NCBI GenBank assembly: GCA_964565125.1
Contig: CAZMCX010000049.1
Location: forward strand, 1 to 5,976
DNA: 5,976 nucleotides
DNA from: an uncultured archaeon
Lineage (GTDB): Archaea; Iainarchaeota; Iainarchaeia; Iainarchaeales; 0-14-0-20-30-16
Direction: 5' to 3'
Shown here: positions 30-5,881 of the stretch, one piece after another
Numbering within the stretch: position 1 is the stretch's first letter
Layout of the letters: every line of letters begins with the position of its first letter
Notes under the pieces: generated by a model
What the model was told of the DNA's origin: nothing
Seen by the model: the letters and a program-made list of their open reading frames with translations, nothing else
The model's database searches: none
Program-made: the position numbers and the translations under genes

Positions 30-296
30 ATGTATTTAAAGGTTACTTCACTAAAATATAATATGGATTTTGAGATTATAATCAACAAGGATCTAGTAAA
101 AACGGAAAGTGTAAATTTTGTAATGGGGCCAAGTTATATGTCTCCTTTTATATCGGGGGCCCTATTATTACAATTTGATAAAAATCTATCTAAATTATTA
201 ATTGCTAATGATCTTGCTTGCAACAAATTTACACCAATCAATGACCCGTTATTCTTAGATACAAAGTCATTAGATGAAAATAAGAAACAAGGGTAG
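30..296 (+). CDS. hypothetical small protein (88 aa)
   Basis: ORF-track ORF with ATG at 30, an alternative in-frame ATG at 63, and a TAG stop at 294-296. It converges on the amidohydrolase gene with 8 nt between the stops. I recognise no motif and see no clear SD. A frame-1 reading of 1..39 (..EKEIFMLCI*) could be the tail of an upstream gene overlapping this start by 10 nt. Confidence 0.35.
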   Translation: MYLKVTSLKYNMDFEIIINKDLVKTESVNFVMGPSYMSPFISGALLLQFDKNLSKLLIANDLACNKFTPINDPLFLDTKSLDENKKQG

Positions 297-304
297 AAAA
301 AATT

Positions 305-1285
305 TTAAATATTAAGGACTTTTATTGCATTCCAATAAAAAATTTTTTCTAAATCCTTTTTTTTAATATCTAAATTTTTAAATACAGCTCCCATTACATC
401 TAATTGATGATATAATAAAAAAGTTAATTCGGGCTTATTATTCAAATACCATTTTCTATCGTCCCTTTTAGTCCAAGGAAATCTTTTTTCCGTAATAAAT
501 TTATTTTGTATTTCACCGGGGGCGGCCATTATTTTTCCTTTTGTAAATGTATATGGAGAATCAGATCCATACAAGATATGTTCGGTTCCAAAACGAATTA
601 TAGCTTCTTCAAAAACATCTGGAGAAGAAACGGTTGATGTTTCTAAAAAAATGTTGCCAGATTGTTTTAATTTTCTAGATGCATTAACTACATCCATTTT
701 TGTTTGACATCCTCCCATATGTGCAAGAATTATCCTAATTTTTGGAAATTTTTCAAAGATATAGTTTAATTCAGAAATATTTTTATAATCATCGACCGGG
801 CTAATTTTAACATGAAGCATTACGGGTTTGAATGATTTATTTAATTCGTACAGAAAAGTTTCTGGTAAAAAATCTAAGATACTTATTTTCGTGTAATCTT
901 TTTTTATAAAATCATGATAAACTTTAAGGCCCTTTACTCTTGAAATTCTTAACAACTCACTTGTCTCTTTAGGATTATCTAAATTTCCTAAAACAAACGG
1001 GTTTTCACACTTCAAAGCATAATTATTGGCTTCTTTAATCTTTGTTTCTATAAATGGAAATGGAAAGGCCACATAATTTAGTTTTATTCCTGGAAGAAGC
1101 AATTTGAATATTTTTTCTAATTTTCCAATAGCCTGACTATATGCTATAGACACCCCAATACAAGATCTCTTTCTTTCAGCAGTAAGAATGCTATGATGCC
1201 TTGGCAGCCCAACATGATTATGCATATCAAAAATTTGTTTTGGTATCCAATCTAAAATTCTTTTTTGATATTCTAAATCCAACAT
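305..1285 (-). CDS. amidohydrolase-2 (PF04909-like) TIM-barrel metal-dependent hydrolase, 326 aa
   Basis: N-terminal D20-M-H22-N-H24 (DxHxH; nt 1214..1222) is followed by MLH158V, ILAH189MGG and LYGSD242SPY, with a C-terminal IFYWNAIKVL helix. The order and spacing of these metal-ligand motifs is typical of the amidohydrolase_2 family. It is the third gene on the same strand, 59 nt downstream of rSAM B. Confidence 0.8.
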   Translation of the reverse strand: MLDLEYQKRILDWIPKQIFDMHNHVGLPRHHSILTAERKRSCIGVSIAYSQAIGKLEKIFKLLLPGIKLNYVAFPFPFIETKIKEANNYALKCENPFVLGNLDNPKETSELLRISRVKGLKVYHDFIKKDYTKISILDFLPETFLYELNKSFKPVMLHVKISPVDDYKNISELNYIFEKFPKIRIILAHMGGCQTKMDVVNASRKLKQSGNIFLETSTVSSPDVFEEAIIRFGTEHILYGSDSPYTFTKGKIMAAPGEIQNKFITEKRFPWTKRDDRKWYLNNKPELTFLLYHQLDVMGAVFKNLDIKKKDLEKIFYWNAIKVLNI

Positions 1286-1333
1286 ATTTAGTTTTATTTT
1301 ACATCACCAATATTTTTATTAATTTAAAATAAC

Positions 1334-1348
1334 AAGCCAAACAGTTAT
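1334..1348. repeat. 15-nt exact direct repeat, copy 1 (aagccaaacagttat)
   Basis: Identical 15-mer to 1407..1421. This copy spans the TAA stop of rSAM B (1345-1347) and the first nucleotides of the B-C spacer. Confidence 0.7.
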
Positions 1349-2457
1349 TTTCTACAAATGTAACTTAGATTTTTATTTAACTTATTACAAATACAAGGCC
1401 TAAAAAAAGCCAAACAGTTATATTTAAATTTACAATTTTGACAAGTTGTCGACATGGCACAAAATTTTATTCTTTTTGCTTTTTGCGATAGCCATATTTT
1501 TTTTATTGATTCTTTAGTTATGTTTCCCAAACTTACGTCATGTAATGCACAGCCTTTAATCTGGCCATTAGGTTCAACATATAAATAGTTTTGTTTTTCT
1601 TGACAAATATAATGCGGCGGATTTTTTATACTGTGTAAGAATAAAGAGTCTATTTTTATGGGCATTGTTAACTTCTCTTTTTTAAAATTCTTTGCCATGT
1701 TCTTTGCTTTTTTTAAATAGTCCAAATAATTTAAATTTTTGAAAAGTTTTTTGGCATTACCAAAATTAACTAAAGAAATCAAAGTCCACGACTTTAGGTT
1801 AGTTAGTTTTAGTTTCTTAAGTTCTTTATATATATTATTTAAATTTTTTGCTGTTTTAAAATCAATCGTAGTCCTTATAACTATTGGAATATTATTTTTA
1901 TCCAAATTTTTTATGCCGTTTATTACTTTAAAATATGTCAACTTTTTACCACGCAGACGGTCATGCTTCTCTGCGACATCATCAAGACTTACAACTATTC
2001 TATTAATACAATATTTGGCTAGCTTTTTTGCAATTGTTTTAGTTATTTTTGTACCATTAGTTGAAATATCAATTCCAAGCCCAAGGCTATCTGCAAACGC
2101 AATAATGTCTAGAAAATCCGCCCTAATAAATGGTTCACCACCTGTAAAATTTACTGATAATACCCCTATATCATAAGCATCTTTTAAAATTGTTTTTATT
2201 TTTCTAAGGGACATACACTTTTTTTGGCCACCCGAAAAATTGTAACAATGCCAACAATTTAAATTACAATTAGAAGTAATACACAATCCGATTCTCTCTA
2301 AAGGCAAAAAATTAGTTTCTCTAAATGCATAGTTTTTCATAATTGATTTTTGTTTGTTTTTATCTATAATCTGATAAGCAGTATACGTTAACCTATTAAA
2401 TATAAAAAAATTTCGCTCTTTTTTGTAGTTAACTATTTGATAAAGGTTATTTAACAT
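1345..2457 (-). CDS. radical SAM / SPASM-domain enzyme B (370 aa)
   Basis: C64-NLN-C68-WH-C71 (CxxxCxxC; nt 2245..2268) and FTGGEPF (SAM-binding GGE motif). The C-terminal Cys-rich domain has C285..NG-QIKG-C303 (Gx4C) and C339-QN-C342-KFKYN-C348-LAFFRP-C355-I-C357, plus C368. Only about 60 aa precede the cluster-binding loop. Confidence 0.9.
   Translation of the reverse strand: MLNNLYQIVNYKKERNFFIFNRLTYTAYQIIDKNKQKSIMKNYAFRETNFLPLERIGLCITSNCNLNCWHCYNFSGGQKKCMSLRKIKTILKDAYDIGVLSVNFTGGEPFIRADFLDIIAFADSLGLGIDISTNGTKITKTIAKKLAKYCINRIVVSLDDVAEKHDRLRGKKLTYFKVINGIKNLDKNNIPIVIRTTIDFKTAKNLNNIYKELKKLKLTNLKSWTLISLVNFGNAKKLFKNLNYLDYLKKAKNMAKNFKKEKLTMPIKIDSLFLHSIKNPPHYICQEKQNYLYVEPNGQIKGCALHDVSLGNITKESIKKIWLSQKAKRIKFCAMSTTCQNCKFKYNCLAFFRPCICNKLNKNLSYICRK
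1407..1421. repeat. 15-nt exact direct repeat, copy 2 (aagccaaacagttat)
   Basis: Identical to 1334..1348 and offset by 73 nt. It lies inside rSAM B and encodes N347-C-L-A-F of the SPASM Cys motif. Confidence 0.7.
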
Positions 2458-3790
2458 TATTTTCCCCCCTTGTTAACCCTTTTTCTAATTCTGTTATTTC
2501 GTCCATAATACCTGATTTATACAAAAGACAAATTTCCTTATCATAATTTTCATAAATGCCATCAATGTGTAATGCATTGGCTCTACAACCAGTACCACAA
2601 AATCTAAGATATTTACAATTTTTACAATTTATATTTTTTTTAACTATGTCACAAATTTTTAGGTTTTTATATTTTTGCATTTTTTCAGATTCCCAAATTT
2701 CTTTTAATGATTGGTTTTTTATATTACCTACCGCATATTCTTTTGGCATTAATGCACAAGAAGTCACTGCCCCGTCATGCCAAATTGTAACATTATGTAA
2801 ATTATAATCACAACATAGGTCTTGAGGGGTATATTTTACGTTATAAACTTTTTTATAAAGATATCTAAACATATGGCCACATTCTAAGTCATAAGGTCTA
2901 TTATCTTTATCCCAACAAGAGATATATTTTTTATAAGCGGTTAATTCTTCATCAGATGAAACCCCTAAAGCATCTTTTGATTTTAACCACCCCCCCAATC
3001 TAAAGCCCGCATCAATTCTTACTCTAATTACATTATCATAATTTTGTATTATTTCATGTATTTTTGAAATGTTATTTAAGTTTAATTTGTTTAAAGATAT
3101 ATTTATTACTACGTTAAAATCCAAATTATTTAATGTTTCTATACCTGCCAAGGCAGATTTAAAAGCAGTTTTATTCTTACGGAAACTGTTGTGTTCATTT
3201 TCTAAGCCATCTAAAGATACATAAAATAGCGGTTTTCCCAGTTCTTTTATTTTTTTCAGAGTTTTTATTTTTTTTGACAATAATGTTCCATTGGTAAATA
3301 TATTCTCAATACGTATTTCTCTTCTATAAAAATAATTAAATACTTCTATAAGGTCTTTTCTAAGAAATGGCTCCCCCCCAGTAATAGTAATATTTAATGC
3401 AGACATATTTTGCATATCTTTTGCAAGTGTGTTTATTACTGTTTTTCCTAACTGATTTTGTTTACTATATGGTTTTATATAACAATGATAACAATTTAAA
3501 TTACATTTGGGGGTAATATGTAAAGTTGCTCGATACAAAAAGGGCCCTTTATATTTGATTATTTTGGGGGGTTGCTTTTTGTTTTCTAAGAAGCCCACAT
3601 CAACAAGATAATCTACTGTATCCAATTGATTTTTTGTCAGTTTTATTTTTTTTTTGTGTTCAAGAATAGCAACTAATTTAGTAGCAAAGGGGGAATTTAG
3701 CTCTTGTTTTTTTCCAGAATAGTAATTAAACAAATAAGTCTTATTTTTTGACATTTTTAAAGAAACATTTTTTGCCAAACAAAAATCCAT
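2447..3790 (-). CDS. radical SAM / SPASM-domain enzyme A with N-terminal RRE-like domain (447 aa)
   Basis: C96-NLN-C100-YH-C103 (nt 3482..3505) and ITGGEPF. The SPASM signature is canonical: C326/C327..HDG-AVTS-C345 (Gx4C), C389-KN-C392-KYLRF-C398-GTG-C402 (Cx2Cx5Cx3C) and downstream C421. About 95 aa precede the rSAM core. No other canonical start codon exists in frame upstream (in-frame TGA 79-81 nt upstream of the ATG). Confidence 0.9.
   Translation of the reverse strand: MDFCLAKNVSLKMSKNKTYLFNYYSGKKQELNSPFATKLVAILEHKKKIKLTKNQLDTVDYLVDVGFLENKKQPPKIIKYKGPFLYRATLHITPKCNLNCYHCYIKPYSKQNQLGKTVINTLAKDMQNMSALNITITGGEPFLRKDLIEVFNYFYRREIRIENIFTNGTLLSKKIKTLKKIKELGKPLFYVSLDGLENEHNSFRKNKTAFKSALAGIETLNNLDFNVVINISLNKLNLNNISKIHEIIQNYDNVIRVRIDAGFRLGGWLKSKDALGVSSDEELTAYKKYISCWDKDNRPYDLECGHMFRYLYKKVYNVKYTPQDLCCDYNLHNVTIWHDGAVTSCALMPKEYAVGNIKNQSLKEIWESEKMQKYKNLKICDIVKKNINCKNCKYLRFCGTGCRANALHIDGIYENYDKEICLLYKSGIMDEITELEKGLTRGENNVK
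2464..2471 (-). promoter_or_regulatory. Shine-Dalgarno-like element for rSAM B, embedded in the 3' end of rSAM A
   Basis: The minus strand reads AAGGGGGG-AAAATA-ATG, a purine/G-rich block 6 nt before B's ATG (2455..2457). Confidence 0.5.
3584..3769 (-). other. PqqD-like RiPP recognition element (RRE) domain within rSAM A (about residues 8-69)
   Basis: NVSLKMSKNKTYLFNYYSGKKQELNSPFATKLVAILEHKK...LDTVDYLVDVGFLE follows the pattern strand-strand-(S/T)G-x-x-x-x-LN-x-x-A-x-x-(I/L)-x-x-L, then a helix ending in a hydrophobic-G-hydrophobic motif. This is the pattern of PqqD/RRE winged-helix domains fused to peptide-modifying rSAM enzymes. The call rests on the pattern alone. Confidence 0.5.
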
Positions 3791-3857
3791 AATAATTAAG
3801 GGAAAGAAAGGTTTAAATAAGGTTTGTAAACAATATATAATTATAGAGGTGGAATTG
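3791..3857. promoter_or_regulatory. 67-nt divergent control region between rSAM A and the small ORF
   Basis: Contains the palindromic TTTAAA at 3812..3817, centred about 25 nt from A's ATG. TATAAT is on the + strand at 3836..3841 and TATAAT on the - strand at 3840..3845. No -35 partner is convincing on either strand. AT-rich background makes chance matches likely. Confidence 0.3.
3846..3851 (+). promoter_or_regulatory. Shine-Dalgarno (GAGGTG) for the 41-codon ORF
   Basis: aGAGGTGgaattgATG is a six-base match to the AGGAGGTG consensus, with 6 nt of spacing to the ATG at 3858. It is the clearest SD in the window. Confidence 0.55.
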
Positions 3858-3983
3858 ATGGCAAAGAATCAAGACTTTGAGCAAAAAGAAGAAAAAAAGG
3901 AATTACAAGAAAGGTTTGGGTTAAAATCAAATGAAATAATTGTTTCAAAAAAAGCATCAATGAACTCAAGCCCAGAATATTGA
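3858..3983 (+). CDS. unannotated small ORF, 41 aa: MAKNQDFEQKEEKKELQERFGLKSNEIIVSKKASMNSSPEY; candidate rSAM precursor peptide
   Basis: Hand-translated: ATG at 3858 and TGA at 3981-3983, followed immediately by an in-frame TAA. It has a strong, well-spaced SD. The + strand is purine-rich, as expected of a sense strand in AT-rich genomes. An open stretch of 41 codons is uncommon in intergenic DNA this rich in stop triplets. It sits divergent to and 67 nt from an RRE-bearing rSAM enzyme. There are no Cys, Trp or His residues. Confidence 0.45.
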   Translation: MAKNQDFEQKEEKKELQERFGLKSNEIIVSKKASMNSSPEY

Positions 3984-4019
3984 TAATTTTTTATTTTAAA
4001 AGTAAAAAACTGATTTTTT

Positions 4020-5621
4020 ATGAAATATGTCATTACTGGCGCGTTGCCTTATGTTAATTATGATTTACATTTTGGCCATGTAGTTTCTTGTTTACTTAGG
4101 CCAGACATATATAGTCGATTTCTAAGATTAAAAGGCGAACAAGTAATTTCAATTTGTGGGTCCGACGAATATGGTACCCCAATATTAGTTGCCTCAGAAC
4201 TGGAAAAAGTGACCCCCCAGGATTTATGCAATAAATATCACAAAATACAAAAAGAATGCATAACTAAATTAAACATTAATTTTGATATTTTTTCTAGAAC
4301 TACTTCTTTAGAACACAGTTTTGTTGTACAAGCATTTTATACTACTTTAAAAAATAATGGCTACATATATAAAAAAAACATAAACCAATTATTTTGTAAA
4401 AACTGTAATCGTTCTTTACCAGACAGATATGTTGAAGGAAATTGTCCTCATTGCGGGGGGCTGACAAGGGGAGATCAATGTGACTTTTGTAGTCAGTTAT
4501 TAGAACCTCACGAATTAATAGAAAACCATTGTATTGTGTGTAAAAACAAACCGGTTATAAAAACAAGCCAACACATTTTTTTTAAATTGTCGTCATTAGA
4601 TAAAAAACTAAAAAACTGGTTACTGGAAAAAAATGATTGGCCCAGTAATGCAAGAAATTATGCACTAAATTTAATAAAAACTGGGTTAAAAGATAAGGAT
4701 ATTTCTCGTGATTTATCCTGGGGAATTCCGATTCCAGACGAAGAAAATAAGGTTTTTTATGTTTGGTTTGATGCCCCAATAGGGTATATTACATTTGCTA
4801 AACAATTAGGCAAAGAAAATTGGTGGTTAGAAAAAGATACAAAAATAATTCAATTTATTGGAAAAGACAATATTCCATTTCATACAATATATTTCCCTGG
4901 AATGCTTTTGGCCCAAGGAAAATATAAATTGCCAAACATTATCTCGGCGTGTGAATTTCTTAATTATATGGGGCGTAAATTTTCAAAGAGTAAAAAAGTA
5001 GGTATTTTTTTAACTGATGCCCTTACTCTTTTCCCTGCAGATTATTGGCGTTACTATTTAGCAACAATACTACCTGAAACAAGTGATAGCTCTTTTGACT
5101 GGAAAGATTTTCAAACAATTGTAAACTGTGACTTAAATGACACAATCGGTAATTTCATAAACAGAACTATGGTTTTGGCAAAAAAATATTTTAGTTGCAA
5201 TGTAAAAAAACCACAACTTAGCGAAAATGATTTTGAATTATTAAATTTAATTTCAACAACTGTAGATTTATCTTCCACACAATTACATTCTATTAAAATA
5301 AAAAAGGCATTAACAACAATTGTGAATTTAATTAGGGCGGGAAATCAATATATAAATAAAGAAGAGCCTTGGAAAAATGACTTAAGAAGACAAAATGTAA
5401 TTTATGTTTGTTTACAGATTATAAAAGCAGCATCAATATTACTTCAACCATATATTCCAGACTCTACAAAAAAGATGCAAAAATATTTAAATCTAGATTG
5501 TAGATCTTGGGATGACGCAAAGAAACTGGAAAATTCTTTTGAATTTGACTCCAATTTTTCTATTTTATTTGATAAAATTGAGGATAAAAAAATTGAAACT
5601 TTAATTAATAACTTTACATAA
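4020..5621 (+). CDS. metG: methionyl-tRNA synthetase, core-only form (533 aa)
   Basis: HIGH motif H17-F-G-H20 (nt 4068..4079) and a KMSKS-type K320-F-S-K-S324 (nt 4977..4991). YVWFDAPIGY and GKDNIPFH match the E. coli MetRS blocks YVWLDAPIGY and GKDIVYFH. Four CxxC pairs (C126/129, C142/145, C154/157, C171/174) form the zinc-knuckle connective-peptide insertion. There is no C-terminal Trbp111/EMAPII-like appended domain and no SD before the ATG. Confidence 0.95.
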   Translation: MKYVITGALPYVNYDLHFGHVVSCLLRPDIYSRFLRLKGEQVISICGSDEYGTPILVASELEKVTPQDLCNKYHKIQKECITKLNINFDIFSRTTSLEHSFVVQAFYTTLKNNGYIYKKNINQLFCKNCNRSLPDRYVEGNCPHCGGLTRGDQCDFCSQLLEPHELIENHCIVCKNKPVIKTSQHIFFKLSSLDKKLKNWLLEKNDWPSNARNYALNLIKTGLKDKDISRDLSWGIPIPDEENKVFYVWFDAPIGYITFAKQLGKENWWLEKDTKIIQFIGKDNIPFHTIYFPGMLLAQGKYKLPNIISACEFLNYMGRKFSKSKKVGIFLTDALTLFPADYWRYYLATILPETSDSSFDWKDFQTIVNCDLNDTIGNFINRTMVLAKKYFSCNVKKPQLSENDFELLNLISTTVDLSSTQLHSIKIKKALTTIVNLIRAGNQYINKEEPWKNDLRRQNVIYVCLQIIKAASILLQPYIPDSTKKMQKYLNLDCRSWDDAKKLENSFEFDSNFSILFDKIEDKKIETLINNFT

Positions 5622-5644
5622 ATATATATTACAAACAAAAAAAA

Positions 5645-5881
5645 TTGACCAAATTACCGCATGAAGTTGAAGAAGCGTTGTTTGATTTATTGTGTGCAAT
5701 GTTTGATAGTGAAAAGAAAAAGGATTATAAAAAAATTATTGCACAAGATATCGCAAACAGAGATGGATATCACAAAAAATATATTTATGAAATATACAAA
5801 ATGATAAAACCTATTCTTGACGGAAAAGAAGACTTAGTTTGGAAATATATTGATTGGGGAAAATTAAAAAAGATAAAATAA
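5645..5881 (+). CDS. hypothetical small protein (78 aa from a TTG start; 60 aa if started at the first in-frame ATG, 5699)
   Basis: ORF-track ORF, but the codon at 5645 is TTG, not ATG, and has no SD. It starts 23 nt after the metG stop. The product is charged and Lys/Tyr-rich, with no recognisable motif. Confidence 0.35.
   Translation: MTKLPHEVEEALFDLLCAMFDSEKKKDYKKIIAQDIANRDGYHKKYIYEIYKMIKPILDGKEDLVWKYIDWGKLKKIK

What the first reader, a model, noticed from the sequence alone, without database searches (positions are those of the whole stretch)
305..3983. Candidate undescribed peptide-modification locus: RRE-rSAM/SPASM, a second rSAM/SPASM, an amidohydrolase, and a divergent Cys-free 41-aa peptide
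Seen in sequence: two tandem, translationally coupled rSAM enzymes each carry CxxxCxxC plus a C-terminal SPASM Cys array, and a DxHxH amidohydrolase-2 protein follows on the same strand. An SD-led 41-codon ORF lies 67 nt upstream on the opposite strand. Established knowledge: SPASM-domain rSAM enzymes fused to PqqD-like RRE domains are the hallmark maturases of RiPPs and peptide-derived cofactors such as PQQ, mycofactocin, sactipeptides, ranthipeptides, streptide and triceptides. Inference: the candidate substrate has no Cys, which rules out sacti- or ranthipeptide thioether chemistry, and no Trp, which rules out streptide- or darobactin-type links. Any modification would therefore have to be C-C or C-O crosslinking, epimerisation or C-terminal chemistry. 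I do not recognise the pairing of two SPASM enzymes with an amidohydrolase-2 hydrolase from any named RiPP class. If the host is a reduced-genome CPR or DPANN organism, a dedicated three-enzyme peptide pathway would be notable.
Basis: partly seen in the sequence, partly recalled or inferred. Interest (0 to 1): 0.85.

Follow-up and report, generated by a model that had tools for sequence, protein, structure and literature searches.

The report
Radical SAM peptide-maturation cassette, DPANN archaeon
A tiny uncultured archaeon carries a compact gene set that most likely makes a chemically modified peptide with two iron-sulfur radical enzymes, and a key residue of that peptide matches the tRNA-charging enzyme encoded next door, which hints at an antibiotic-and-immunity pair.

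Summary
A (2447-3790) and B (1345-2457) are radical SAM/SPASM enzymes, C (305-1285) is an Amidohydro_2 hydrolase, and a 41-codon ORF with a ribosome-binding site lies 67 nt upstream of A on the other strand.

The peptide-modification reading holds for A plus the small ORF:
- A has an N-terminal domain homologous to PqqD-type RREs. Its predicted fold best matches the RiPP maturases SkfB, SuiB, CteB and TigE.
- No curated family cut-off is reached, including AhbC/AhbD/NirJ.
- A's homologues in three other uncultured lineages also have a small Cys-free ORF beside them. These ORFs share the C-terminal motif K-x-S-[M/I]-N with pep41.

B has no RRE of its own. C is not a conserved partner: its orthologues elsewhere are not next to SPASM enzymes, and the other A-type loci lack it.

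New lead: A-type loci sit beside class I aminoacyl-tRNA synthetases. The motif residue matches the synthetase in all three cases (M with MetRS twice, I with IleRS once). This parallels the published tiarin rule for synthetase-inhibitor RiPPs.

The five genes lie exactly between two halves of a disrupted gene, inside a roughly 20 kb island with six radical SAM genes. MetRS homology and the public record label point to a DPANN archaeon. Chemistry and target are untested.

The parts
2447..3790 (-). A: RRE-like domain + radical SAM + SPASM peptide maturase (447 aa)
   Evidence: Pfam Radical_SAM and SPASM hits. AlphaFold model with pLDDT 90.8. Top Foldseek matches are SkfB, SuiB, CteB and TigE. All NCBIfam scores are far below cut-off.
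3581..3790 (-). N-terminal RRE-like domain of A (about residues 1-70): three strands and two helices, one helix shorter than typical PqqD
   Evidence: DSSP on the model gives strands 9-13, 18-22, 28-30 and helices 33-43, 53-64. hhalign of the A-type N-terminal profile against the N-termini of PqqD-positive homologues gives probability 97.2%, E 3.6e-11. The Pfam PqqD HMM does not hit A itself but hits 16 of 35 aligned homologues.
3482..3505 (-). CxxxCxxC radical SAM cluster motif of A (C96, C100, C103)
   Evidence: These columns are invariant in alignment A1.
2528..2812 (-). SPASM region of A with seven conserved Cys (C327, C345, C389, C392, C398, C402, C421)
   Evidence: Pfam SPASM covers residues 327-393. 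The Cys columns are invariant or nearly invariant.
1345..2457 (-). B: second radical SAM/SPASM enzyme (370 aa), overlaps the end of A by 11 nt, no RRE
   Evidence: Pfam hits. In the model the N-terminal 50 residues have pLDDT about 50 and show no RRE topology. Among the A-type enzymes and neighbouring radical SAM proteins compared, its best full-length matches are A-type enzymes: 31% to P0010 and 29% to P0011. It is not an orthologue of the accessory radical SAM genes of the other loci.
305..1285 (-). C: Amidohydro_2 (PF04909) metal-dependent TIM-barrel hydrolase (326 aa); membership in the pathway unresolved
   Evidence: Pfam hit. DxHxH, H158, H189 and D242 are invariant. Orthologues elsewhere lie next to class I LysRS, Peptidase_S66 or NUDIX genes, not next to SPASM enzymes. 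C does lie inside the same bounded 5.3-kb segment.
3791..3857 (.). 67-nt divergent intergenic region with TTTAAATA (3812-3819) and the GAGGTGG ribosome-binding site (3846-3852) of the small ORF
   Evidence: Read directly from the sequence. The promoter role is inferred. The sigma-70 scan was uninformative.
3858..3983 (+). pep41: 41-aa Cys-free candidate precursor peptide MAKNQDFEQKEEKKELQERFGLKSNEIIVSKKASMNSSPEY
   Evidence: Gene-like codon score. Homologous small ORFs lie beside A-type enzymes in L047, L048 and L001-L004. Pairwise shuffle p is 0.003-0.05 in 5 of 6 pairs.
3951..3965 (+). Conserved core motif K32-A-S-M-N36 (family pattern K-x-S-[M/I]-N)
   Evidence: The motif aligns in register in four loci. 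Its background rate is 1 in 2197 and 2 in 6475 small ORFs.
4020..5621 (+). Methionyl-tRNA synthetase (533 aa), 36 nt downstream of pep41 and inside the same bounded segment
   Evidence: NF001100 scores 593 bits against a cut-off of 587. The closest relatives are DPANN MetRS at 59% identity, and those carry an extra C-terminal tRNA_bind domain.
63..227 (+). Left boundary: N-terminal fragment (aa 1-55) of a paralogue of the 266-aa HExxH gene
   Evidence: tblastn with the intact paralogue L044 4768-5568 gives 45% identity. DNA identity is 79-88%.
5624..5881 (+). Right boundary: C-terminal fragment (aa 182-266) of the same 266-aa gene family, starting 2 nt after the MetRS stop codon
   Evidence: 88% amino-acid and 89% DNA identity to L044 5317-5577.

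Best explanation
Window 305-5621 is a five-gene cassette of a DPANN archaeon, read outward from one 67-nt divergent region: A-B-C on the minus strand and pep41-MetRS on the plus strand.

The core is a RiPP-type pair. A binds the Lys/Glu-rich leader of pep41 through its shortened PqqD-like RRE. It then uses 5'-deoxyadenosyl radical chemistry, with two auxiliary SPASM clusters, on the conserved C-terminal pentad K-x-S-M-N.

The family's peptides contain no Cys, so the product cannot be a thioether. The most likely outcome is a C-C, C-O or C-N crosslink, or an epimerisation, inside or next to that pentad.

B is an RRE-less enzyme most similar to A-type enzymes. It probably installs a second modification on the peptide that A has recruited.

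C is an intact metal-dependent hydrolase that travelled with the cassette, but it is not a conserved family partner. If it takes part, it does so as a trimming or detoxifying hydrolase.

Shown here: domain content, fold, RRE homology, conservation of the peptide family, gene order and cassette boundaries. Inferred: the enzyme-substrate pairing, the site of modification and the type of chemistry.
For: Enzyme A:
- Pfam domains.
- A high-confidence model of A with a beta-beta-beta-alpha-alpha N-terminal domain.
- Full-length Foldseek matches to the RRE-bearing RiPP maturases SuiB, CteB and TigE, plus SkfB.
- hhalign probability 97.2% between the A-type N-terminal domain and PqqD-positive N-termini.

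Peptide family:
- Small Cys-free ORFs with K-x-S-[M/I]-N lie beside A-type enzymes that are 31-39% identical to A. These are L047 5044-5157, L048 402-521 and L001 8762-8854. The L001 ORF has a strong SD and a hairpin after it.
- Alignments are collinear, with composition-preserving shuffle p of 0.003-0.05 in 5 of 6 pairs.
- The motif is nearly absent from 8,672 control small ORFs.
- pep41's codon score exceeds the 95th percentile of spurious ORFs.
- pep41 is absent upstream of MetRS in the two relatives examined. It therefore goes with A, not with MetRS housekeeping.

Cassette:
- The A/B overlap and the SD-like run before B.
- The five genes lie exactly between two halves of a disrupted 266-aa-type gene.
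Against:
- pep41 is on the opposite strand from A, whereas the homologous peptides in the other three loci are on the enzyme's strand.
- A's RRE lacks about 16 residues, one helix, and the Pfam PqqD model does not detect it.
- The pep41-L048 peptide pair is not significant on its own, p 0.36.
- A single-sequence search of 1.84 billion representatives found no pep41 relatives.
- The P0002 locus shows no upstream peptide, and the contig ends before the position where the P0003 locus keeps its peptide.
- The island contains other small peptides that could be alternative substrates.
Confidence: 0.65

Rival explanations
1. Synthetase-directed RiPP with an immunity copy. The modified S-X-N core is a warhead in which side chain X directs the processed peptide to the cognate aminoacyl-tRNA synthetase. 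The adjacent MetRS (IleRS in another lineage) is the resistant or immunity copy. Hydrolases such as C or Peptidase_S66 process or detoxify the compound. This would be a radical-SAM counterpart of tiarins and microcin C.
For: - A-type loci are immediately beside a class I synthetase in 3 of 4 independent contexts: the window (MetRS), L047 (MetRS) and L048 (IleRS, 11 nt downstream).
- None of 28 control SPASM loci has one.
- X is M, M and I respectively, a 3 of 3 match.
- In L048 a remnant IleRS N-terminus lies upstream of peptide-rSAM-IleRS, so the synthetase arrived together with the cassette.
- In the window MetRS lies inside the bounded inserted segment.
- A Peptidase_S66 gene (the Pfam family recalled to hold the microcin C immunity protein MccF) and a NUDIX gene precede the L047 peptide.
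- C is next to S66 in L036 and is flanked by two LysRS paralogues in L035/L041.
- Published precedent: in tiarins the residue before a conserved Gln equals the specificity of the cluster-encoded synthetase.
Against: - There are only three data points.
- Reduced genomes are dense in translation genes, and the control loci come from other taxa.
- No second MetRS of the source genome could be identified.
- The two MetRS are only 38.5% identical, so they did not co-transfer with A-type genes.
- The L001 locus (X = I) has no synthetase within 10 kb.
- Peptidase_S66 scores far below the curated cut-off for muramoyltetrapeptide carboxypeptidase and could simply be housekeeping.
- No transporter or export gene was seen.
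Confidence: 0.25
2. One reading: A, B and C form one obligatory three-enzyme pathway, in which the amidohydrolase is a dedicated step such as leader or follower removal, or C-terminal chemistry on Tyr41.
For: - C is on the same strand, 59 nt after B.
- C lies inside the same bounded 5.3-kb segment as A, B, pep41 and MetRS.
- C's catalytic residues are intact.
- The family peptides carry short tails of 2-5 residues after the conserved Asn that would need trimming.
Against: - C orthologues at 41-54% identity in L035, L036, L037-40 and L041-42 have no SPASM neighbour.
- The A-type loci L001-4, L047 and L048 have no C.
- The B-C gap contains an A/T-rich TATA-like stretch, so C may have its own promoter.
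Confidence: 0.15
3. pep41 is not the substrate. It is a spurious ORF or an upstream ORF of MetRS. A and B act instead on another peptide of the island, such as the Cx5C peptides, or on a protein.
For: - pep41 is co-directional with MetRS, 36 nt upstream of it, and divergent from A.
- The island encodes several other small peptides beside other radical SAM genes.
- A 41-codon ORF can arise by chance.
Against: - Homologous peptides sit beside A-type enzymes in other lineages and not upstream of the synthetase there.
- The two MetRS relatives examined have no such ORF.
- The other island peptides show no similarity to the family and have their own adjacent enzymes.
Confidence: 0.08
4. A and B are cofactor or tetrapyrrole-type SPASM enzymes (AhbC/AhbD/NirJ-like, sulfatase maturase, MoaA-like) with no peptide substrate.
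For: The lowest-E-value NCBIfam hits for A and B include NirJ1, NirJ2, AhbC and AhbD, with E values of 1e-27 to 1e-35.
Against: - Scores of 96-121 bits are far below the cut-offs of 500-650 bits, and peptide maturases (WgkB, ScmE) score equally well.
- A has an RRE-type domain that those enzymes lack by architecture.
- The best structural matches are peptide maturases.
- A conserved peptide is present.
- No tetrapyrrole or sulfatase genes lie nearby.
Confidence: 0.03

Closest known systems
RRE-fused radical SAM/SPASM RiPP maturases (SuiB of streptide, CteB and SkfB of sactipeptides, TigE)
   Same: The three-part architecture is the same: an N-terminal PqqD-like domain, a CxxxCxxC radical SAM barrel, and a SPASM domain with seven Cys for two auxiliary clusters. 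These are the best structural matches to the A model. A small precursor gene lies next to the enzyme.
   Different: - Sequence identity is only 12-19% in the structural alignments.
- No curated family cut-off is reached.
- The RRE lacks one helix.
- The substrate family has no Cys and no Trp, so thioether and Lys-Trp chemistry are excluded.
- The conserved core K-x-S-[M/I]-N matched no NCBIfam or Pfam peptide model.
Tiarins (trifolitoxin-like synthetase inhibitors; bioRxiv 10.64898/2025.12.02.691738)
   Same: Both are RiPP loci enriched for adjacent aminoacyl-tRNA synthetase genes. In both, the residue just before a conserved amide residue in the core (Gln in tiarins, Asn here) equals the specificity of the neighbouring synthetase.
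   Different: [quoted passage not shown] The paper does not mention radical SAM enzymes.
- Pfam and NCBIfam scans of the window's proteins returned no dehydrogenase or nitroreductase family.
- The synthetase duplication shown for tiarins could not be tested here.
Microcin C-type peptidyl-nucleotide Trojan horses (from background knowledge; ThiF-type RiPP review PMC12250964 was listed but not read)
   Same: An Asn-containing short core is conceptually linked to a synthetase target. An S66 (MccF-family) peptidase gene lies next to the L047 member.
   Different: - Pfam and NCBIfam scans of the window's proteins returned no ThiF/MccB adenylyltransferase family.
- The Asn is not C-terminal.
- The enzymology is radical SAM.
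Mycofactocin (MftA/MftB/MftC/MftE) and PQQ (PqqA/D/E)
   Same: Both are Cys-independent SPASM chemistry on a small peptide with an RRE. In mycofactocin a hydrolase releases the product from the peptide's C-terminus. pep41 ends in Tyr.
   Different: - TIGR03962 scores 77.5 bits (A) and 88.0 bits (B) against a cut-off of 265. PqqE scores 80.9 bits (B) against 381.
- The C-terminal Tyr is not conserved in the peptide family, whose tails are DNQ, IAD and LN.
- There is no Val-Tyr or E-x3-Y motif.
- C belongs to PF04909, whereas MftE is recalled to be creatininase-type.
AhbC/AhbD/NirJ heme-pathway SPASM enzymes
   Same: They have the lowest E-values among NCBIfam hits, and they share the radical SAM and SPASM core.
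   Different: - Scores are about one fifth of the curated cut-offs.
- These enzymes have no RRE.
- No tetrapyrrole genes lie in the window or on the two overlapping contigs.

Membership tests
Radical SAM superfamily (PF04055) | CxxxCxxC cluster motif and a Pfam score above the gathering threshold | tested here: met
   A scores 72.1 bits and B 87.8 bits against 29.5. A has C96/C100/C103 and B has C64/C68/C71, conserved in the alignments.
SPASM subgroup (PF13186) | C-terminal Cys array for two auxiliary 4Fe-4S clusters (Cx9-15Gx4C ... CxxCx5Cx3C ... C) | tested here: met
   A scores 43.7 bits and B 40.8 bits against 21.5. A has seven conserved Cys, including CKNCKYLRFCGTGC. B has the variant spacing CQNCKFKYNCLAFFRPCIC, and that region is modelled with low confidence.
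PqqD-like RiPP recognition element (RRE) | Winged-helix domain with three strands and three helices, homologous to PqqD (PF05402) | tested here: inconclusive
   For A, profile-profile homology to PqqD-positive N-termini is strong: hhalign probability 97.2%, E 3.6e-11. The model shows three strands and two helices. However, the Pfam PqqD HMM gives no hit on A, and about 16 residues (one helix) are deleted. Peptide binding was not tested. For B, no RRE was predicted.
AhbC / AhbD / NirJ (alternative heme and heme d1 synthesis) | NCBIfam equivalog score above the curated cut-off | tested here: not met
   A scores 121.4 against 650 (NirJ1), 116.0 against 650 (AhbC) and 114.4 against 500 (AhbD). B scores 116.6 against 500 (NirJ2) and 112.1 against 500 (AhbD).
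Anaerobic sulfatase maturase | TIGR03942 score above cut-off | tested here: not met
   A scores 69.5 and B 66.3 against 349.45.
Sactipeptide / ranthipeptide systems | Cys residues in the precursor core as thioether donors | tested here: not met
   pep41 and its three homologues contain no Cys. AlbA, StsB, PapB and SkfB models are all far below cut-off.
Mycofactocin | MftC equivalog score; precursor ending in Val-Tyr; MftB/D/E partners | tested here: not met
   TIGR03962 scores 77.5 (A) and 88.0 (B) against 265. pep41 ends in Glu-Tyr, and the Tyr is not conserved in the family. No NCBIfam family for the other Mft proteins was returned for any window protein.
PQQ (PqqE/PqqA) | PqqE equivalog score; E-x3-Y in the precursor | tested here: not met
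   TIGR02109 scores 80.9 (B) against 381. pep41 has no E-x3-Y motif.
Tiarins | TfxB/TfxC FMN-dependent dehydrogenase pair with RRE; conserved Gln in the core | tested here: not met
   No FMN-dependent dehydrogenase or nitroreductase family was returned for any window protein. The conserved core residue is Asn, not Gln. Only the synthetase-matching rule is shared: 3 of 3 loci.
Tiarin-like or microcin C-like immunity logic | A second, housekeeping copy of the same synthetase elsewhere in the genome | not testable with these tools
   Only 6-10 kb contigs of the source organism are available. None of seven similar MetRS records checked carries an accession of the PIU series seen for this organism's C protein, PIU02728.1.
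Amidohydro_2 (PF04909) metal-dependent hydrolases/decarboxylases | Pfam score above threshold; HxH, His, His and Asp metal ligands | tested here: met
   C scores 49.5 bits against 26.4. D20, H22, H24, H158, H189 and D242 are invariant in seven family members. The closest solved sequence is 3cjp, an uncharacterised amidohydrolase, at E 6e-6. No NCBIfam family matched.
New K-x-S-[M/I]-N precursor family (proposed here) | A 30-41 aa Cys-free ORF beside an A-type enzyme, with a [LI]xxR[LF]-like mid-region and K-x-S-[M/I]-N 2-5 residues from the C-terminus | tested here: met
   pep41 matches, as do L047 5044-5157, L048 402-521 and L001 8762-8854. The motif background is 3 in 8,672 control small ORFs.

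The most novel reading that the evidence does not exclude
A-type radical SAM/SPASM enzymes and K-x-S-X-N peptides define a new class of synthetase-directed RiPPs in ultra-small archaea and bacteria. Residue X (Met here, Ile elsewhere) programmes the target synthetase. The cassette carries its own MetRS or IleRS as immunity, and it moves as a unit. This would be a radical-SAM counterpart of the tiarin rule, used by episymbionts with reduced genomes.
Probability: 0.25. Interest if true: 0.9.

Novelty: new variant of a known kind. Interest (0 to 1): 0.7.

Why it matters
Radical SAM/SPASM RiPP clusters have been predicted in archaea, including DPANN, but that paper reports experimental validation only for archaeal lanthipeptides (PMC12144867). 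DPANN genomes are reported to encode very few biosynthetic clusters (bioRxiv 10.64898/2026.04.17.719132).

This locus gives three concrete things:
- An enzyme family with no curated model.
- A matching precursor family with a defined five-residue core, conserved across at least four uncultured lineages from both domains.
- A small, directly testable construct: one peptide and two or three enzymes.

If the correlation between the core residue and the neighbouring synthetase holds, a sequence rule would predict the target of a new antibiotic scaffold. It would also show that organisms with minimal genomes invest in targeted chemical warfare or defence around translation. If it does not hold, the locus is still a new Cys-independent SPASM chemistry to solve.

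Tried and rejected
- **Species-representative genomes.** A scan with A found only relatives at 28% identity or less.
- **Viral contigs.** Scans with A, with MetRS and with an A-type alignment found nothing closer than 28% identity over an extended match (36% over only about 50 residues). Those loci served only as controls.
- **Plasmids.** No match.
- **Rfam and tRNA scans** of the window and of L018 found nothing.
- **The sigma-70 promoter/terminator scan** did not exceed shuffled expectation and does not suit an archaeon.
- **The Pfam PqqD model** on the isolated N-termini of A, B and the island enzymes gave no hit. This was resolved by structure prediction and profile-profile comparison instead.
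- **phmmer of pep41** against 1.84 billion representatives found only itself.
- **The 28-aa ORF overlapping the start of P0003** (L001 6934-7020, 'EMNIN') was considered as a family member and dropped. It is not significantly similar and is not conserved in the 56%-identical P0002 locus. The real member in that locus is the 30-aa ORF after the cupin gene.
- **The 66-aa Cys-rich ORF divergent from P0003** is unrelated to pep41.
- **Synteny of MetRS relatives** was checked for an empty site. Their context (helicase, VTT, MetRS) has no C, A, B or pep41, but at 53-59% identity they are too distant to define an insertion site.
- **Co-transfer of MetRS with A-type genes** was rejected, because the window and L047 MetRS are 38.5% identical.
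- **A second MetRS from the same genome** could not be found by accession series.
- **Strain variants** of pep41, A and B are more than 97% identical and carry no information on selection.

Full report
**1. What is in the window**

The 5,976-base window has 25-31% GC. On the minus strand it encodes three genes in a row:
- A: 2447-3790, 447 aa.
- B: 1345-2457, 370 aa.
- C: 305-1285, 326 aa.

On the plus strand it encodes:
- A 41-codon ORF, pep41 (3858-3983).
- A methionyl-tRNA synthetase (4020-5621).
- Two short ORFs at the edges (30-296 and 5645-5881).

Pfam confirms Radical_SAM plus SPASM in both A and B, and Amidohydro_2 in C. All scores are above the gathering thresholds.

- B's ATG lies 11 nt inside the end of A, behind a G-rich ribosome-binding-like run.
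- pep41 has GAGGTGG 5 nt before its ATG, and that ATG lies 67 nt from A's start codon.
- C carries DxHxH, two further His and an Asp. All are invariant among its seven known relatives.

**2. Where it comes from**

The window is a 5,976-bp public contig. A truncated copy of C in a public record is labelled Candidatus Diapherotrites archaeon. The MetRS is closest to Micrarchaeota and Diapherotrites enzymes, at 59% identity or less. The host is therefore a deep-branching DPANN archaeon.

Two overlapping assemblies extend the window:
- L018 extends it 2.7 kb to the left.
- L044 extends it 9.7 kb to the right.

**3. A is a peptide maturase by architecture, in no known family**

- All 64 NCBIfam hits of A and all 60 of B lie far below their curated cut-offs. 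The best are NirJ1, AhbC, AhbD and the peptide maturase WgkB, at 110-121 bits against cut-offs of 500-650.
- AlphaFold with a 35-sequence alignment gives a confident model of A (pLDDT 90.8). Its N-terminal domain has three strands and two helices.
- The best Foldseek matches in the PDB are SkfB, SuiB, CteB and TigE. The alignments to SuiB, CteB and TigE span 454-484 columns, the whole protein including the RRE.
- The Pfam PqqD model does not hit A directly, but it hits 16 of 35 aligned homologues in the equivalent region.
- A profile of the N-termini of A and its eight closest relatives aligns with a profile of PqqD-positive N-termini at 97.2% probability, E 3.6e-11.
- In A itself about 16 residues, one helix, are missing.

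B's model is confident only in the core. Its first 50 residues show no RRE. Among the A-type enzymes and neighbouring radical SAM proteins compared, B's best full-length matches are A-type enzymes, at 29-31% identity. It looks like an RRE-less paralogue.

**4. The small ORF is conserved with the enzyme**

A's nearest relatives are only 29-39% identical, so no close syntenic locus exists. Three of the more distant loci are informative.
- In L047 (P0011) a 37-aa ORF lies 25 nt upstream of the enzyme.
- In L048/L049 (P0010) a 39-aa ORF lies directly upstream.
- In L001-L004 (P0003) a 30-aa ORF follows the cupin gene next to the enzyme. It was called as a gene, has AAGGAGGTGA before its ATG, and has a hairpin after it.

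The four peptides are:

| Locus | Sequence |
|---|---|
| window (pep41) | MAKNQDFEQKEEKKELQERFGLKSNEIIVS**KKASMN**SSPEY |
| L047 | MKKRNQTKQGAQKRNLEARLKHRKEPFN**LKTSMN**DNQ |
| L048 | MKKVKNKLSSSKSKKKIRNSSLHSAKKSVN**LKSSIN**IAD |
| L001 | MKNVKKKRDVHKEIKAERLTIS**TKSSIN**LN |

- All four are Cys-free and Lys-rich.
- They align collinearly and end in K-x-S-[M/I]-N followed by 2-5 residues.
- Composition-preserving shuffles give p of 0.003-0.05 in five of six pairs.
- The motif as a regular expression matches 1 unrelated ORF among 2,197 small ORFs of the first 49 loci, and 2 among 6,475 in 80 control loci.
- pep41 also has gene-like codon usage.
- pep41 is absent upstream of MetRS in the two relatives examined.

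One caveat remains: pep41 is divergent from A, whereas the other three peptides share the enzyme's strand.

**5. C and B are not conserved partners**

C has only six detectable relatives at 41-66% identity, plus one truncated identical copy. In the four contexts that could be read, C's relatives sit next to the following:
- Class I LysRS genes (L035, L041/42). These are one lineage, because their LysRS are 68% identical.
- A Peptidase_S66 gene and a His-phosphatase/NUDIX fusion (L036).
- An ATP-grasp gene (L037).

None is next to a SPASM enzyme. Conversely, the other A-type loci carry no C.

L001/2 and L047 do share a different accessory set. It consists of two non-SPASM radical SAM genes (57% and 50% identical between the two loci) and a methyltransferase. 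B is not their orthologue. So the conserved core is A-type enzyme plus peptide, and the tailoring genes vary by lineage.

C remains ambiguous for one reason, covered in section 6.

**6. The five genes form a bounded unit inside a radical SAM island**

The two edge ORFs of the window are the N-terminal part (aa 1-55, 45% identity) and the C-terminal part (aa 182-266, 88% identity) of a paralogue of an intact 266-aa HExxH gene. That intact gene lies 4.4 kb further right.
- C, B, A, pep41 and MetRS lie exactly between the two halves.
- The right-hand homology starts 2 nt after the MetRS stop codon.
- This MetRS lacks the C-terminal tRNA-binding domain that its closest relatives have.

The simplest reading is that a 5.3-kb segment, synthetase included, was inserted into that gene. 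This is inference: two independent assemblies each confirm one junction.

Around the segment lie four more radical SAM genes. Three have SPASM hits. They come with their own small peptides, among them two with a C-terminal Cx5C, and with several HExxH proteins.

**7. The synthetase lead**

A-type genes sit immediately beside class I synthetases in three of four independent contexts:
- The window: MetRS, divergent, with pep41 in between.
- L047: MetRS, convergent, 29 nt away.
- L048: IleRS, 11 nt downstream on the same strand.

No MetRS, IleRS or class I LysRS was found in 28 control loci (278 kb) around unrelated SPASM genes. That contrast works out by hand to roughly 1 in 1,000. It is only a rough figure, because the control loci come from other taxa.

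The variable residue of the motif is M, M and I respectively, matching the synthetase each time.

In L048 a 43-aa ORF upstream of the peptide is a remnant IleRS N-terminus, 48% identical to residues 3-29 of the full IleRS downstream. The peptide-enzyme-IleRS block therefore appears to have arrived together and displaced a resident gene.

L047 also has NUDIX and Peptidase_S66 genes just upstream of the peptide. S66 is recalled, from background knowledge, to be the family of the microcin C immunity protein MccF. C's relative in L036 is next to an S66 gene.

A 2025 preprint on tiarins describes the same logic for a different enzymology. There the residue before a conserved Gln equals the specificity of the cluster-encoded synthetase, which acts as the resistant copy. 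The paper does not mention radical SAM enzymes.

I rate this reading at about 0.25, for four reasons:
- There are only three matches.
- Reduced genomes are dense in translation genes.
- One family locus has no synthetase within 10 kb.
- Synthetase duplication could not be tested.

**8. Mechanism proposed**

A recruits pep41 through its RRE-like domain and carries out hydrogen-atom abstraction on the K-x-S-M-N pentad. B adds a second radical modification. The peptides have no Cys, so a thioether is excluded. A C-C, C-O or C-N crosslink or an epimerisation is expected. The non-conserved tail, including Tyr41, is probably removed.

Which bond forms is unknown. The role of C as a trimming or detoxifying hydrolase is a guess.

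**9. Comparison and novelty**

By architecture this is an RRE/radical SAM/SPASM RiPP system, which is a known kind. Several things place it outside every family tested here:
- The enzyme subfamily.
- The precursor family and its core motif.
- The tandem RRE-plus/RRE-minus enzyme pair.
- The placement in a DPANN archaeon.
- The synthetase association.

Neither Pfam nor NCBIfam recognises any of the four peptides. Literature searches found only generic predictions of rSAM RiPP clusters in archaea, and that paper reports experimental validation only for archaeal lanthipeptides.

I classify it as a new variant of a known kind and score interest at 0.7.

Noticed in passing
window 63-227 (+) and 5624-5881 (+); intact paralogue at L044 4768-5568: The two edge ORFs of the window are the N- and C-terminal parts of a gene homologous to an intact 266-aa HExxH protein nearby. 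The middle (aa 56-181) is replaced by the 5.3-kb block C-B-A-pep41-MetRS. The N-terminal piece is much more diverged (45% aa identity) than the C-terminal piece (88%).
   Followed up: partly
window 4020-5621 (+): The MetRS is 533 aa and lacks the C-terminal tRNA_bind (PF01588) domain that its closest relatives (654-658 aa, 53-59% identity) have. Its stop codon is 2 nt from the junction with the 266-aa gene fragment, so it may have been truncated by the rearrangement. Other archaeal MetRS of about 535 aa do exist.
   Followed up: partly
L018 5104-5294; L044 4522-4711; partial copy L044 10154-10202: A roughly 190-nt module, 89% identical between copies, contains a 41/42-aa ORF (MTKFDNSTQR...). 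It sits directly in front of different peptide-plus-radical-SAM cassettes. Nine of 41 residues differ at 89% nucleotide identity, so it may be a conserved regulatory or recombination module rather than a protein.
   Followed up: partly
L018 5307-7163 (left of the window); L044 1124-8643 (right of the window): The surrounding roughly 20 kb holds four more radical SAM genes (348, 361, 618 and 677 aa). Two candidate precursors end in Cx5C: MKLLNYVGQTREVDLKKLSSRKLVKQCPDSKGCAK and MKKFVFKIKKIKKSTPSEYTCQRPGACGTP. Each is followed by an unknown 263/296-aa protein and a SPASM enzyme. A 39-aa peptide and a 107-aa PEP-utilizers-domain protein are also present.
   Followed up: partly
L048 274-405 and 2000-4852: A 43-aa ORF upstream of the peptide/A-type gene is a remnant IleRS N-terminus, 48% identical to residues 3-29 of the complete IleRS that follows the radical SAM gene. 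It looks as if the incoming block displaced a resident IleRS.
   Followed up: partly
L035 8632-12598; L041 3-3294; L036 5722-7155: Relatives of C are flanked by two class I LysRS paralogues: a divergent 462-aa one that overlaps its start, and a canonical convergent one. In another lineage a Peptidase_S66 gene follows directly. L035 carries SecA and RecO, so this hydrolase family is shared between ultra-small bacteria and a DPANN archaeon.
   Followed up: partly
L044 537-1055, 4768-5568, 8713-9213: Three unannotated proteins of the island (172, 266 and 166 aa) each contain an HExxH motif (HEIVH, HEVLH, HEITH) and have no Pfam match. They could be small metalloproteases for leader removal.
   Followed up: no
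L001 8395-8757 (also L002-L004): In the P0003 lineage a 120-aa Cupin_2 protein sits between the A-type enzyme and the family peptide on all four contigs. Nucleoside-metabolism genes (PNP_UDP_1, PRK) and an ABC-F-like ATPase lie upstream.
   Followed up: no
window 3812-3819: TTTAAATA lies in the middle of the 67-nt divergent region, about 26 nt from A's ATG, and A has no ribosome-binding site. This is compatible with a shared archaeal TATA box and a leaderless A transcript. It rests purely on reading the sequence.
   Followed up: no
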